Shown: positions 21,072 through 60,400 of the stretch, in pieces
Position numbering within the stretch: the first letter of the stretch is position 1
How the letters are laid out: the number at the start of each line of letters is the position of its first letter
Assembly (NCBI GenBank): GCA_951406725.2
Contig: OX597831.1
Coordinates: 24,614,001-24,678,000 of the forward strand
DNA from: Octopus vulgaris
Taxonomy: Eukaryota
DNA: 64,000 nt
Direction: 5' to 3'
Made by a program: the position numbers and the translations under genes
The notes under the pieces: generated by a model
What the model was told of the DNA's origin: nothing
Database searches by the model: none
What the model saw: only the letters and a program-made list of their open reading frames with translations

Positions 21072-21198
21072 ATAAAAGGAAATGAAGAAAATGCTGACAA
21101 AATAATTTAAGTAATTTAAGTAATTTAATTAGGTGAAAGTTCTTTTTACCGGTTGCGCATTTGTTATGCTTATCAAAAGTTTTTCCCTCTTATCCTCT
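21072..21198 (-). mobile_element. Island within (TA)n carrying a degenerate minimal hammerhead motif (Penelope-like remnant)
   Basis: Minus strand 21180-21142: CTTTTGATAA-GCAT AACAA ATGC-GCAA-CCGG-TA-AAAAG; both core boxes mutated. Confidence 0.45.
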
Positions 21199-21303
21199 TA
21201 TATATATATATATATATATATATATATATATATATATATATATATATATATATATATATATATATATATATATATATATATATATATATACATATGTATG
21301 TGA

Positions 21304-21626
21304 AGGCACGTGGCTTAGTGGTTAGTGGCATTCGGCTCATAATCATAAGGTCATGAGTTCAATTCCTGGTGGCACGTTGTGTCCTTGAGCAAGACACTTA
21401 ATTTCATGTTGCTCCAGTCCACTCAGCTGGCAAAAATGAGTAGTACCTGTATTTCAAAGGGCCAGCCTTGTCCCACTCTGTTTCACCCTAAATCTCCCTG
21501 AGAACTACGTTAAACGTACATGTGTTTGTGGAGTCCTCAGTCACTCGCACATTAATTTCACGAACAAGCTGTTCCATGGATCGTATCAGCTGGGACACTC
21601 GTCGTCGCAACCAACGGAGTGCTCCT
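21304..21626 (+). mobile_element. SINE family C (tRNA head plus CORE-like block)
   Basis: GGCACGTGGCTTAGTGGTTAG, GAGTTCAATTCC, TGTGTCCTTGAGCAAGACACTT, tail CTCGTCGTCGCAACCAACGGAGTGC. Confidence 0.85.
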
Positions 21627-21645
21627 ATATATACATACATACATG

Positions 21646-21865
21646 CACGAGTACGGAGAAGTTCCTCAGTTTAAGGGTATTGTGAAAGGCCTACAGGCTG
21701 GAGGCCCAATCTTCTGAGTTCTTTTACAGCGTTTAGAAAAACGAAAGGACTGCTGCAAGGAAGTGTATGAATCTGAGAGTGGAACACGTTGAACAAAATC
21801 ATAGGTTATTCATCCTCCTGTAAATTCTTTTACCAAAAACCAGGAACTTTTCAACACCAGCCTAG
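21646..21865 (+). mobile_element. Mariner-derived MITE, copy 2
   Basis: Aligns to 12358-12567 (GGAGGCCCAATCTTC, GAATCTGAGAG, CCAGGAACTTTTCA). Confidence 0.75.
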
Positions 21866-22157
21866 AATATATATATATATATATATAGGCACACATATTT
21901 CTCTTATTTACAATTCAACGGAAAAAAATTTGCTTTTAAAACAGGGCAGCCTTTGGTATCACTTTGAAATTTTTGCCTCAGTACCTATTTTAAATCTGGT
22001 AATTATTCTATTTGCTGAACTGCTAAGTTGCAAGGACATAAACAAAGCAGCACTGGGTGCCAAGCAGTATTATACAAACAACTTCGAAGACCCACAAGCA
22101 TATTCATATATATATATATATATATATATATATGTATATATATTTAATTCATATATA

Positions 22158-55808: not shown

Positions 55809-56041
55809 AAGGCAGCGAGCCGGCAGAATCGTTAGCACGCCGGGTGAAATGCTTTGCGGTATTTCGTCTGCCGCTACGTTCTGAGTTCAAATTCCGACGA
55901 GGTCGACTTTGCCTTTCATCCTTTCGGGGTCGATTAAATAAGTACCAGTTACGCACTGGGGTCGATATTATCGACTTAATCCGTTTGTCTGTCCTTGTTT
56001 GTCCTCTCTGTGTTTAGCCCCTTGTGGGTAGTAAAGAAATA
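55809..56041 (+). mobile_element. SINE family B, full length, with perfect 15-bp TSD
   Basis: AATATTAATATTCCT at 55794-55808 and 56042-56056. Confidence 0.95.
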
Positions 56042-56861
56042 AATATTAATATTCCTCGCTCTCTGTGCTCTGCCACTGAGGTTCTCTGTAACTTAGATTA
56101 TGATTGAATTTAAAATCTTGATTATTCTACTTTTGTTTTCACCTTAAGCAAATTTAATTTTCACTTGTACTATTTGTACAGTTTGTATACCATTGTTTTC
56201 GAAAGCAAATGACAGATTGTGTAAGTCTAAAGTGAAGATATTCATTAATATATATCAGCTGCCGCTATATTCTGAATGTATTCTTATTAAACAAATGATT
56301 TTACATATATTTCAAATTATTACACAAGATTCCAGTTTAATGTGAGTTAGTATTAAACTGAAATTGCATCACACAGACTTTAGATTTCTGTCAAGTCAGC
56401 AGAGTTGTGTTGAGAAAAGACAAAAATAGTTGCTTGAATCCTTGCCAAGAATTATTAATTTGTCTCCCTCAGTTTGACACTTCTTTAAAGATTTCTCATG
56501 TAGTAGATGTTTAATTAAGCACCGGAGTTTGCTATATGTGGGAATTTGTTGTGTTAATGCCTTCCATAACTGCATTTATTAAACACATTTGATATAAAAG
56601 TCTGGTAACGGTAAAGATTTATTAGCTGTTGCTCTTACTAAAAGTTAAAACTGGTAGCTAATGTAGTCATTCAACTTGCTAGGAATAGTATCCAATTTTC
56701 CCTCCAGTCTCCACCTTCTCCTTTACTCTCTTGGAAAAGGGGCAGCAGACACATTTGGTCAAGCTGCTATAGATAAACTATGAATAAAATATTGCATGGA
56801 TACAGCTGAAGCATCTTTGATCATAAGTCATCTGAAAATATTTCAAACATTGACAAATACC

Positions 56862-57024
56862 TTAGGAATGAGAACCCAGGTTCGAAATTTCCCCAAGACA
56901 CCTGAAGAAGGCTGGAGGGTATATCAGCTGAAACGATGTGTTAACAACAAACAAGATGAGGACAAATATCCGTCGAATGTAAATAATGTACATAAATTCC
57001 TCATCTCTTAAATATAGAACTGTA
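56862..57024 (+). mobile_element. Penelope-like terminal remnant containing a minimal hammerhead motif (56898-56941)
   Basis: ACAC-CTGAAGA-A-GGCTG GAGGGTATAT CAGCT-GAAA-CG-AT-GTGT; downstream ATAAATTCCTC also follows the 22264 motif. Confidence 0.6.
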
Positions 57025-57029
57025 TTATC

Positions 57030-57490
57030 CATTGTCCATGCTAGTATGGATTGGATGGTTTGACTGGGATGGCTGGAAGACTGGGATGGCTGGAAGACTG
57101 TGCCAGGACCCAGTCTGTTTTGGAATGGTTTTCTCTGACTGGATGCCCTTTCTAATGCCAACCACTCTGAGAATGTAATGAGTGTTTTACGTGCCACCAG
57201 CATGGGTGCCATTTGTGTGACACTGGTATCTACCATGACTATTATTTTGCTCAGCTTGATGGGGTCTTCTTCTCCAGCATGACATAATGCCAAAGGTCTT
57301 GGTCATTGCCTCCATGTGGCCCAACACTTGAAAGGAGATTGGTCACTTTACCTCCATGAGGTCCAACGCTCGAAAGGAACTCAGCCACCTCACCTCCGTG
57401 AGGCCCACTTAAAAGGAACTCAGCCACTTCGCCCCTATACCCATAGAGCCCAACACTCGAAAGGAACTCAGCCACTCCATGAGGCCCAAC
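57030..57490 (-). mobile_element. SINE family D with internal tandem repeats
   Basis: GGATGCCCTTTCTAATGCCAACCACTC; repeated AAAGGAACTCAGCCAC units at 57370-57480. Confidence 0.75.
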
Positions 57491-60400
57491 GTTCTAAGAT
57501 TGTTTTTTGTTTTCTGGGTTCAAATCCTGCTAAGGTCAACTTGGGTATTTATCTCTCTGGGATCAATAAAACAAAGTAGCTGTTAAATTCTGGGGTCAAC
57601 TTAATCAACTAAATCCTGCCTTTGAAATTTTAGGCATTGTGTACATGACACCTTAGGCAGGTGTCTTCTGTTATAGCCCCAGGCTAATGAAAGCCTTGTC
57701 AGTGGTTTTGGCAGATGGAAACTAAAACGAGCCGACTGTATGTGTGCGTGTGCATGTGTGTGTGTGTGTGTGTGAAAAAGAGTGTGCATGTCTGTGTGTG
57801 TGTGCATGTGTGCATGTGTGCATGTGTGTGTGCATGTTAATTATTCCTGGACTTCACAAGGTATCTGTGATGTGTCTGATCTTGGAGAACATTACCTTGC
57901 TTGGAATTATGTGAGGGTTGATGACAGGGAAGGCATCTGGCTGTAAGAAGTTTGCTTCAACTCTTTCTCATACACACACACACACACGCACATACAGTGG
58001 GCTTCTTTTAGTTTCCATCTGCCAAAACCACTGACAAGGCTGTCATTAGCCTGGGGCTATAACAAAAGACACCTAACTTCTGTCCAACTCATGTAAGCAT
58101 GGGAAAGTGCACATTAAATGATGATGATGTGTCTGCTATAAACAATTATTTATGCTTTTGCTGTGTCTAGATAGAGTTATCATGTCAATATTACTGACAC
58201 ACACACACACCACTTCAACAAAAACAAAAACAAAATTATTTATAACGATATCTACCCAAAAACCATACAAACAGAAAACACCATGGTTTCAAAGTTATTA
58301 TGTCAGTGATAGGATGTGACCCATCGTCAATCTTTCCACCATTAAAGCTATCTCTGTTGCCAATATTATTAGTTACTGATATCAGATTATGTAAACAGTT
58401 ACCATTTCTTCTCGCACCTTATCAACTTAACTACCGCTAAATTCTGTTACGTTTGTGTGATACTTGGAAACTAAATCTTCTCCATTATAGCAAAACAATA
58501 ATCCTATACTTCTCACTGGGACATGTAAAGAATTTTTTAATCTTTTTATTGATTATTATTATCATTATTATTATTATTATTATTATTATTGCTGACAATA
58601 TCAAATTACCTTCTGTAGTGATATCTTAATGCAACATTTAGCTTCCATCCGGTTTCAAACTTCTTTGATTAATAATTTTGAAATAAACTCAATTGTTTTT
58701 AAGTATTTGATGAAAATAACAATAATAATAATAACAATAATATTTATTGTTATTATTATTATTATTATTATTATTATTATTATTATTATTATTATTATTA
58801 TTATTATTATTACTGTGACTTATAATGACTTTATTTTATAGCGTTGTAATTTAGTTTCTTAAAGTACTTAACAGATTTTACTGCTGAGCGTTTAAAAGAC
58901 TGCCAGTATCACTGGGGAATAGCGATAATGATGATGATGATGATGATAATGACGATGATAATAATGAAACGACTGAAGAAGAGTATGTATTGGGGACAAT
59001 AAATAGAAAAGACAAAAACTTATTGTAAAAAAAAACAACAACAAAAAAGACTATTTGACAGAAGCTTTTAAGGCATCAAATATCTCTTGTTCAATTTTAG
59101 TTTTATATAGGTTTGATGGCTTGTGAGATGACTGTAGAATGAAACAGATTTAAGTAGGATGTTACTTGTTTGTGAAGCAGGAAATAACTTCATGAGTGTT
59201 TATGGGGAAACAAGATTTATAACCTAAAATAAAAATATAACTGAGTGGTTAAGAAGTTTGGTTTACAATGAGGAGGCCTTAAGTTCAATTTTATCACGGG
59301 GTATTTTGAACAGGTGTTTTTTTTTAGCTTCATCTACGAAACTTTGCCTTTGAAATTACAGACATTGTGTAGTAAGAAGTTTACTTCCTAACCACATAGT
59401 TTCTGAATTTAATCTTACCGCATGGCATGGCACCTTGCTCAAATGTATTCTAAGGTAGCCCTGGGCCAACCAAAGCTTCGTGAGTGGATTTGGTTGACAG
59501 AAGCTGAAAGATACCAATTGCATACATATATATATATATATATATATATATATATATACACACACATACATATGTCTCTTCTGTTTTTTAATTATCATTA
59601 ATCTTCCACTGAGGAGGGAACTGGTTCCCAACAAAGATACAAGGCTCCCTCATTGGGATGTAGTTAACACAGACAAATTCAGATTTGGAACTTGAGAAAT
59701 GTCTTGCATGTTTTTACTGTTCCACTCACAGATTGCTCCTGTAATGTATGAATTAGCCGGTCCGTTTCTTTTTCTGAAAATCCCAGTTTATCCAGATTCT
59801 CCTTTAAGCATTTACGAACAAAACCTTGCAAAATCTTGCATTTCATGTTTCTTCCCTCCTACACACATACACACACACACACAGTATTCTGTCTATGATG
59901 GTGAGATCAATATAAAAAGTACTTCATCTGGTGAGAGATAAATATTATTTAATAAACACAATATATGTTCTTGTGTGCTACTATTAGTTCTACGTGCTGA
60001 GAACATGCCAAACAATGCTGTTAACACATCTTATGTGTCAGATGATTGTGCTAGGACACCAAACGTGTTAAAAATCACTTTTTGGCATATTCTCAACACA
60101 TGAAACTAATAGTAGCACGTAAAAACATATTGTGTTTATTAAATAAAATATATGATGATTGTTTCATCGTGTCTGATGATAGCTGTCTCCCATTCAAATA
60201 ATCATGAGACCACAGCATGCCATTTGATTTTAATGACAAAAGCTTGCACAACACTTTGACTACTCCCTGAGTAGCCTTGTAGATTCTAGTGACAAGTATT
60301 GGAAGATAACTGGTATTATTTCTATGGCAAGACTTACACCAGAGTACCTTTCTCCCAGAAGAGCTGCCTTCTCCAGAGCTTTGTCAAGAATAACTGGAAG

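What the first reader, a model, noticed from the sequence alone, without database searches (positions are those of the whole stretch)
21072..60152. Several sequence-distinct islands carrying minimal hammerhead motifs, many inside (TA)n tracts
Seen: full or partial CUGANGA-stem II-GAAA-palindromic stem III-UH motifs at 21142-21180(-), 22264-22324(+, mirrored on -), ~33866-34030, 40349-40385(+), 42905-42948(-), 51253-51337(-), 56898-56941(+) and ~60035-60075(+). Stem III is ACCGGT, ACGT, ACGATCGT, ACGTGCGT or CTCGGAG. Established: minimal type I hammerheads with palindromic stem III that act as dimers mark Penelope-like pseudo-LTRs and retrozymes. Inference: up to eight unrelated families in 64 kb suggests a large, diverse ribozyme-retroelement radiation here, some of it targeting (TA)n.
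Basis: partly seen in the sequence, partly recalled or inferred. Interest (0 to 1): 0.72.

Follow-up and report, generated by a model that had tools for sequence, protein, structure and literature searches.

The report
Penelope retrotransposon tails carrying hammerhead motifs
Six of the eight flagged spots are broken-off tail ends of common Penelope-type jumping genes that carry a predicted self-cutting 'hammerhead' RNA motif, a known pairing that is abundant across this genome; in one young family a fixed core change likely disables cutting, which is untested.

Summary
Partly confirmed; mostly known. None of the eight window motifs passes a strict type I hammerhead descriptor. Six sit in high-copy repeats (479-1,943 genome candidates), each traced upstream to a GIY-YIG or RT-GIY-YIG frame: four Hydra-clade families, one Neptune-type, one Penelope/Poseidon-type. 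Majority sequences restore the hammerhead in five, and relatives of one family show compensatory changes (8 of 13 pairs). Sites 40349 and 42905 are single-copy and no better than chance; the 60035 motif was mis-paired; a seventh family at 2811-2853(-) was missed. None of the eight is a tandem retrozyme. A systematic 800-kb sample gave 29 strict motifs against 0-3 in shuffles (very roughly 45,000-110,000 genome-wide), so the radiation is real and this window is likely ordinary. Hydra-clade hammerheads and (TA)n targeting are published, including an octopus family. This scan already reported long helix II and a tRNA-headed Penelope elsewhere in this genome. I found no prior report of one detail: the young Neptune-type family at 21075-21198 has C at core position 13 and a two-pair helix I (0 of 51 aligned hits read GAAA), so it likely spread with a dead ribozyme. 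Cleavage is untested.

The parts
21075..21198 (-). 3' end of a young Neptune-type Penelope-like element inside a (TA)n tract; hammerhead-like motif 21145-21178 with U3-A8, C13 and a 2-bp helix I
   Evidence: 479 candidates, mean identity 99.5% in 30 loci; RT and GIY-YIG upstream in L168, Pfam PF00078 E 3.7e-5 and PF01541 E 9.9e-7; CX4CxxC linker and CxxC in the nuclease core; 0 of 51 aligned hits have GAAA
22155..22258 (-). Inverted left arm of a Hydra-clade 3' end; hammerhead 22198-22258, A15.1->G
22264..22431 (+). Direct right arm of the same insertion, flanked by (TA)n; hammerhead 22264-22324, A15.1->G in this copy
   Evidence: 1,479 candidates; majority sequence passes the strict descriptor; 21 of 30 loci pass; Hydra-type nuclease frame in the inverted 5' arm of L306
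33720..33981 (-). Left arm, with 3' tail, of a Hydra-clade 3' end; starts just after the missing CUGANGA; helix III decayed
33978..34177 (+). Right arm of the same insertion; holds only the 3' half of a long-helix-II hammerhead (34011-34030)
   Evidence: 1,461 candidates; family has CUGAUGA and a ~100-nt helix II arm; nuclease (CxCX5C, CxxC, CxH) and RT fragments upstream
51135..51470 (-). 3' end of a Hydra-clade element ending in (TA)n; hammerhead 51250-51340 with a 58-nt helix II arm closed by U.U; one helix I mismatch in this copy
   Evidence: 1,943 candidates; majority passes; nuclease frame ~2 kb upstream in L355 and L348; covariation among relatives
56846..57030 (+). 3' end of a Penelope/Poseidon-type element; minimal hammerhead 56897-56942, U16.1->A in this copy; not in (TA)n; this copy lacks the tRNA-like head that most relatives have
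   Evidence: 1,207 candidates; majority passes; L020 shows nuclease end, 3' UTR, head, (AAY)n, this end, an inverted arm and a ~12-bp target duplication
59890..60031 (-). Inverted left arm, with 3' tail, of a Hydra-clade 3' end; lacks the 5' core
60035..60153 (+). Direct right arm; true hammerhead 60035-60118 with a 56-nt helix II arm, U.U closing pair and 9-nt palindromic helix III; U4->A in this copy
   Evidence: 772 candidates; majority passes; RT and nuclease frames upstream in L308, L167, L150
2675..2935 (-).
   Evidence: only strict hit in the window; 711 candidates at ~80% identity; majority passes
40349..40385 (+). Rejected: single-copy partial match without helix I
42905..42948 (-). 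Rejected: single-copy; only GAAA plus a short palindrome, no 5' core

Best explanation
Six of the eight islands are 5'-truncated, decayed 3' ends (120-460 bp) of six unrelated protein-coding Penelope-like retrotransposon families, whose terminal repeats carry type I hammerhead motifs predicted to fold as dimers through a palindromic helix III and likely to cut only weakly, if at all. Shown: repeat status, linkage to RT/GIY-YIG frames, inverted 5' arms, optional 3' tails, (TA)n flanks for the Hydra and Neptune types, restored cores in five families, covariation in one family group. Inferred from published work on other Penelope-like elements: the element's nuclease nicks AT-rich or (TA)n DNA, its RT starts near the RNA's 3' end at one of two sites (giving the optional tail) and usually stops early, so most copies keep only the hammerhead-bearing end and then decay neutrally. 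The hammerhead is likely kept in the source elements but is likely not required for insertion. The seventh repeat (2811-2853) likely belongs to the same class.
For: Repeat searches. Coding links: L168/L271/L265, L306 (65, 70), L300/L326/L318 (70, 74), L355/L348 (71), L020 (35), L308/L167 (64, 103). Inverted arm upstream in 19 of 30, 17 of 30, 8 of 25, 8 of 25, 18 of 30, 15 of 25 loci. (TA)>=4 near the 3' end in 30 of 30, 28 of 30, 14 of 25, 18 of 25, 7 of 25 loci against 9.4% background, but 1 of 30 for the Poseidon type. Two classes of 3' end. Covariation: 8 of 13 pairs changed on both sides, 90% of cells paired, 0 of 500 shuffles as high. Cofolding gives intermolecular helix III for 5 of 7 families. 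Same motif layout as published Hydra hammerheads. CpG sites decay faster than other sites, as in dead copies.
Against: No cleavage data. No RT or nuclease remnant in the window itself; linkage comes from other copies. 5' ends do not pile up at the predicted cut sites. No intact ORF was found for the six families. Clade names rest on motif checks and by-eye likeness to the published Hydra-1_Obim text, not on a tree. The covariation set was 8 rows chosen from 48 that already held a core-like pattern. Cofolding did not give the hammerhead dimer for the 56846 and 2811 families. Loci were the best 20-30 of 40 scored candidates, so they lean to young copies.
Confidence: 0.88

Rival explanations
1. 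The islands are stand-alone non-coding retrozymes or SINE-like elements spread from their own short RNAs by borrowed Penelope enzymes.
For: Holds in part for the 56846 family: a tRNA-like head is present in 20 of 30 loci, and 34 of 39 head hits start within -14 to +39 nt of its first base. Tandem retrozyme arrays exist in the genome (353-359-nt period in L170).
Against: All six families continue upstream into coding frames in some copies, with variable 5' ends; no island is a tandem array; the window's 56846 copy has no head.
Confidence: 0.08
2. The motifs are chance matches in AT-rich DNA.
For: True as far as tested for 40349 and 42905; no window site of the eight passes the strict descriptor; single-strand folding z-scores are between +0.5 and -1.7 for all 7 stretches folded.
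Against: Majority sequences restore the motif; 29 strict hits in 800 kb against 0-3 in 25 shuffles; covariation.
Confidence: 0.02
3. The window is a local hotspot, or the motifs are host-domesticated ribozymes acting on a host transcript.
For: Seven families in 64 kb, whereas the same seven families average 1.8 insertions per 64 kb in the systematic sample.
Against: Those seven were picked because they are in the window; the sample holds at least 16 motif clusters and only about 3 of 22 insertions of these families keep a strict motif, so total density of order 10 per 64 kb is expected (inference). Each window copy but 2811 has a core or helix lesion, and palindromic arms would pair with each other.
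Confidence: 0.02

Closest known systems
Hydra-clade Penelope-like elements and their hammerheads, incl. Hydra-1_Obim (Craig et al. 2021, PMC8557442; seen: passages, section 11, supplement passages and supplement part 2)
   Same: C-terminal GIY-YIG without CCHH, CxCX5C linker, CxxC and CxH motifs, (TA)n target, 3' hammerhead with U.U or G.U next to the core and an 8-9-nt palindromic helix III; four window families fit.
   Different: Helix II arm of 31, 56, 58 and ~100 nt here, against loops of 3-10 nt on 3-7-bp stems in the published Hydra rows; 3' UTRs up to ~2 kb.
Minimal hammerheads of metazoan PLEs, incl. the U3-A8 variant of S. mansoni Cercyon (Cervera and De la Pena 2014, PMC4209133; seen: parts 1-2 of 4, supplements not seen)
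   Same: Type I, dimer-type palindromic helix III, many families per genome, mostly single truncated copies, U3-A8 core in part.
   Different: Estimated motif number here (roughly 45,000-110,000, my descriptor, 800-kb sample) exceeds the 2,000-9,000 they report with another descriptor; the C13 core of the 21075 family is not mentioned in the parts read.
Poseidon element of Anolis, PAc (Frangieh et al. 2024, PMC11167929; seen: parts 1-2 of 4)
   Same: Optional 3' tail from two RT start sites; AT-rich target; hammerhead mutants did not affect insertion in vitro.
   Different: PAc has an active, protein-assisted ribozyme; the 21075 family would be a natural core mutant, and the 56846 family adds a tRNA-like head.
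Animal non-LTR retrozymes (bioRxiv 10.64898/2026.07.22.740005, parts 1-2 of 5 seen; PMC7229834, search listing only)
   Same: Type I hammerhead, Penelope-related.
   Different: Retrozymes are tandem non-coding units; the window islands are ends of coding elements.

Membership tests
EN+ Penelope-like elements | RT plus C-terminal GIY-YIG frame upstream of the terminal repeat | tested here: met
   RT and nuclease for the 21075, 33866 and 60035 families; nuclease end only for 22264, 51253, 56846; not traced for 2811
EN+ Penelope-like elements | 5'-truncated copies with inverted arms and an optional 3' tail | tested here: met
EN+ Penelope-like elements | RT phylogeny within the PLE clade | not tested
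Hydra clade (22264, 33866, 51253, 60035 families) | CCHH absent; CxCX5C linker; CxxC and CxH around the conserved E and N | tested here: met
   all three motifs in L326 (33866 family); CxCX5C and CxH readable in L167/L150 (60035 family); decayed but in register in L306 and L355; no cysteines in the GIY-YIG core of any; nucleases 26-36% identical to each other and to P0001/P0002, no match to the Neptune-type ones at E<=1e-3
Hydra clade (22264, 33866, 51253, 60035 families) | N-terminal RWK and DKT motifs | not tested
   N-termini of these families were not recovered
Hydra clade (22264, 33866, 51253, 60035 families) | (TA)n insertion preference | tested here: met
   28 of 30, 14 of 25, 18 of 25, 7 of 25 against 9.4% background; weakest for the 60035 family
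Neptune clade (21075 family) | CX2-5CxxC linker plus CCHH in a C-terminal nuclease | tested here: met
   Nematis shares a (reduced) linker, so Neptune over Nematis is my recalled reading, not tested by a tree
Penelope/Poseidon clade (56846 family) | C-terminal nuclease lacking the linker Zn-finger | tested here: inconclusive
   no linker motif in the one decayed frame examined (L020); Pfam gave no hit; label partly recalled
Type I minimal hammerhead | Core C3-U4-G5-A6-N7-G8-A9...G12-A13-A14-A15.1-U16.1-H17 (or U3-A8) | tested here: met
   majority sequences of six of seven families; not met in the 21075 family (next row) nor in most window copies
Type I minimal hammerhead | A13 and a stable helix I in the 21075 family | tested here: not met
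   0 of 51 aligned hits read GAAA (some loci overlap); no other letter at >=3% in 944, 147 and 51 contigs of three public runs; helix I two pairs
Type I minimal hammerhead | Covarying helices I-III | tested here: met
   51253 family and relatives only; other families compared by eye
Type I minimal hammerhead | Self-cleavage, as dimer | not testable with these tools
   bench assay needed
Non-LTR retrozymes | Tandem non-coding units each with a hammerhead | tested here: not met
   no tandem array at any island; families lead into coding frames
tRNA-derived SINE (56846 family) | tRNA-derived head with A and B boxes and discrete 5' start | tested here: inconclusive
   A- and B-box-like words seen by eye (box consensus recalled); 5' ends pile up at the head; Rfam gave no tRNA match on the head; relaxed ARAGORN calls were inconsistent

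The most novel reading that the evidence does not exclude
The 21075-21198 Neptune-type family is a natural knock-out: it fixed A13->C and lost most of helix I, yet made hundreds to thousands of copies that are 99.5% identical, while its sister family (60% nuclease identity) keeps GAAA. Penelope-like elements can therefore transpose in vivo without hammerhead cleavage, and the retained helix II/helix III fold serves as a binding or dimerisation element for the RT-nuclease rather than as a ribozyme.
Probability: 0.35. Interest if true: 0.62.

Novelty: new member of a known kind. Interest (0 to 1): 0.36.

Why it matters
The class is known, so the window itself is ordinary. Two things would matter. 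First, scale: tens of thousands of intact-looking motifs in at least 16-27 sequence clusters make this genome a large natural library of hammerhead variants (long helix II, U3-A8, U.U closing pair) that Rfam misses. Second, the function of PLE hammerheads is open; a recently amplified family with a fixed core lesion next to a sister family with an intact core gives a direct paired test of whether cleavage is needed in vivo.

Tried and rejected
Rfam: no hammerhead in the window or in six loci, including L170 with 7 strict motifs, so Rfam silence is uninformative. Pile-up of 5' ends at predicted cut sites: not seen; the 48-49 starts in the 21075 family come from a deletion junction in L265/L312. 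I first read the 22264/33866/51253/60035 nucleases as Nematis from memory; the published motif list moved them to Hydra. Apparent links of the 51253 family to Neptune-type frames in L117 and L258 were rejected as nested insertions. A sharp 5' boundary in the 33866 family was an artefact of the query copy. A covariance model was dropped because 3 of 14 rows misaligned. A permuted-hammerhead reading of 42905 was checked by eye only and did not pair. Expression: no RNA holder listed. Lower divergence at core positions (4 of 7 families clearly) is confounded by choosing best matches and was not used as main evidence. Literature searches; 'hammerhead'+'A13C' returned one irrelevant paper, and Fig. 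5 and Figs S6-S7 of PMC3088659 were not seen, so a prior report of C13 is not excluded. Supplements of PMC4209133 and of the bioRxiv preprint were not seen and may list octopus families.
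Full report
Context. The window is G000:C18:24614001-24678000 of a 2.8-Gb, AT-rich animal genome; its repeats look octopus-like (inference from recalled SINEs and from likeness to published octopus elements). About 43% of the window matches other fetched loci.

Observation. The quoted letters are present. Rfam finds no hammerhead among 108 matches at E<=5, but it also misses seven clean motifs in L170. I wrote a strict type I descriptor: helix I >=4 bp, CUGANGA or UUGANAA, optional extra base, helix II >=3 bp with up to 110 nt between the cores, GAAA, palindromic helix III, UH. 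It matched 0 of the 8 sites and one unlisted site at 2811-2853(-); 30 shuffles averaged 0.23. So the window alone does not prove the claim.

Repeat test. Six sites are high-copy: 479, 1,479, 1,461, 1,943, 1,207 and 772 first-look candidates, 40 scored each, 25-30 fetched; the missed site has 711. Mean identity to the majority is 99.5, 97.0, 93.9, 96.5, 96.3, 93.0 and 87.5%. 40349 and 42905 return only themselves and match nothing in the other loci. 40349 has a U3-G8 core and no helix I; matches of that grade number 7 against a shuffle mean of 3.65, 4 of 40 shuffles as high. 42905 has no 5' core. I reject both, though very old relics cannot be excluded.

Core restoration. Majority sequences pass the strict descriptor for the 22264, 51253, 56846, 60035 and 2811 families. 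The 33866 family has the full core and a ~100-nt helix II arm, and misses only through a G.U opening pair and one mismatch. Copies passing: 21 of 30, 11 of 25, 11 of 30, 9 of 25, 2 of 20; 0 of 25 (7 relaxed) for 33866; 0 of 30 for 21075. At 33866 neither arm keeps CUGANGA. The seven family ends do not match one another. Relatives of the 51253 family found by sequence profile keep all three helices: 8 of 13 pairs change on both sides, 90.4% of cells pair, 0 of 500 shuffles reach that, and slid controls pair 23-50% (8 rows chosen from 48 that held a core-like pattern). Cofolding predicts intermolecular helix III for 5 of 7 families.

What carries them. The 21075 end follows an RT and a GIY-YIG frame in L168 with a CX4CxxC linker: Neptune type. 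The 56846 end follows a linker-less nuclease end in L020, which has an inverted 5' arm and a ~12-bp target duplication: Penelope/Poseidon type (label partly recalled). The 22264 (L306), 33866 (L326, L318), 51253 (L355, L348) and 60035 (L308, L167) ends follow nucleases without CCHH and with CxCX5C, CxxC and CxH motifs, intact or decayed: the Hydra clade as defined in PMC8557442 section 11. That paper's supplement lists Hydra-1_Obim from an octopus with (TA)n preference and a hammerhead, and Hydra motifs with the same U.U closing pair and 9-nt palindromes as the 51253 and 60035 families. Inverted arms occur in 8 of 25 to 19 of 30 loci and 3' ends fall into two classes, the tail signature explained by two RT start sites in PMC11167929. 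(TA)>=4 lies near the 3' end in 30 of 30 (21075), 28 of 30, 14 of 25, 18 of 25, 7 of 25 loci, but 1 of 30 for 56846; background 9.4%. No coding remnant lies in the window.

Scale. In 80 systematically placed 10-kb stretches the descriptor gave 29 hits in 19 stretches, against 0-3 in 25 shuffles. Seven hits are one tandem array; the other 22 give about 27 per Mb, roughly 45,000-110,000 genome-wide, about 6% of it chance. They form 16 clusters, and 27 across the 279 loci then held. A GIY-YIG search gave 6,136 candidates, with many 781-aa open frames among the 150 scored. The radiation is real and genome-wide; seven families in 64 kb is likely ordinary.

Mechanism. Shown: these are ends of coding elements, copied with 5' truncation and inversion and then decayed (CpG divergence 12-48% against 2-13% elsewhere in six families). 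Inferred: target-primed reverse transcription from near the RNA's 3' end makes the hammerhead-bearing end the most copied part. The motif would fold only as a dimer; published minimal PLE hammerheads cut weakly (PMC4209133) and cleavage was not needed for insertion in vitro (PMC11167929). 5' ends here do not gather at cut sites.

Variants. (a) Long helix II in Hydra-type families; reported several times by this scan on other DNA. (b) The 56846 family has a tRNA-like head in its 3' UTR: present in 20 of 30 loci; 31 of 39 head hits are followed by the terminal repeat; 34 of 39 start within -14 to +39 nt of the head (two of the five longer hits are duplicates). This suggests SINE-like copies from a polymerase III start, but Rfam does not call it a tRNA; already noted by this scan (e1-8796959). 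(c) The 21075 family has U3-A8 (known, PMC4209133), C at position 13 and a two-pair helix I. No aligned hit of 51 reads GAAA, the longer form in L265 has the same C, and three public runs under three coded organism labels show no other letter at >=3% (a fourth run laid nothing). Its sister family keeps U3-A8 with GAAA and a 3-4-bp helix I. A13 is part of the consensus core and core changes are generally taken to inactivate (PMC3088659); I found no A13C report and no scan note on this sequence, but did not see that paper's figures. Divergence inside the family is too small to show selection on the remaining fold.

Verdict. Observation partly confirmed; interpretation right in kind, overstated in number and novelty. 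New members of known kinds. Interest 0.36, carried by the scale and by the C13 family.

Noticed in passing
Coding partner not traced.
   Followed up: partly
L170:2289-4560 (G000:C1, 20.00 Mb): Retrozyme-like tandem array, 353-359-nt period, seven identical hammerheads in two opposite arms.
   Followed up: no
L311:1664-4006: Intact 781-aa Neptune-type RT-GIY-YIG frame; many frames of the same length, so likely a recently active family with a U3-A8 hammerhead.
   Followed up: partly
L265:2620-3000 (oriented) versus window 21075-21198: The short young form of the 21075 end lacks two internal segments (~35 and ~200 nt) present in a longer form; the deletions join at A-runs on both sides of the hammerhead-like motif.
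   Followed up: partly
L020:1393-1470: tRNA-like head plus (AAY)n linker inside the 3' UTR of the 56846 family; most copies start at it.
   Followed up: partly
window 43707-43982 (-): Frame resembling a mariner transposase C-terminus (recalled motif; Pfam gave no hit).
   Followed up: no
window 27613-27951 (-): Frame resembling the restriction-like nuclease end of an R4/Dong-type LINE between (AAT)n tracts (recalled; Pfam uninformative).
   Followed up: no
window 45125-45191: Short fragment after a (TA)n tract matching the 3' end of another U3-A8 hammerhead family (L201); the motif itself is absent.
   Followed up: no
window 33440-33605, 36060-36141, 36242-36396, 48184-48313: Further short islands between (TA)n tracts without a hammerhead motif; possibly more truncated 3' ends.
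   Followed up: no
window 44186-44502: Degenerate 32-bp minisatellite, about 10 copies.
   Followed up: no
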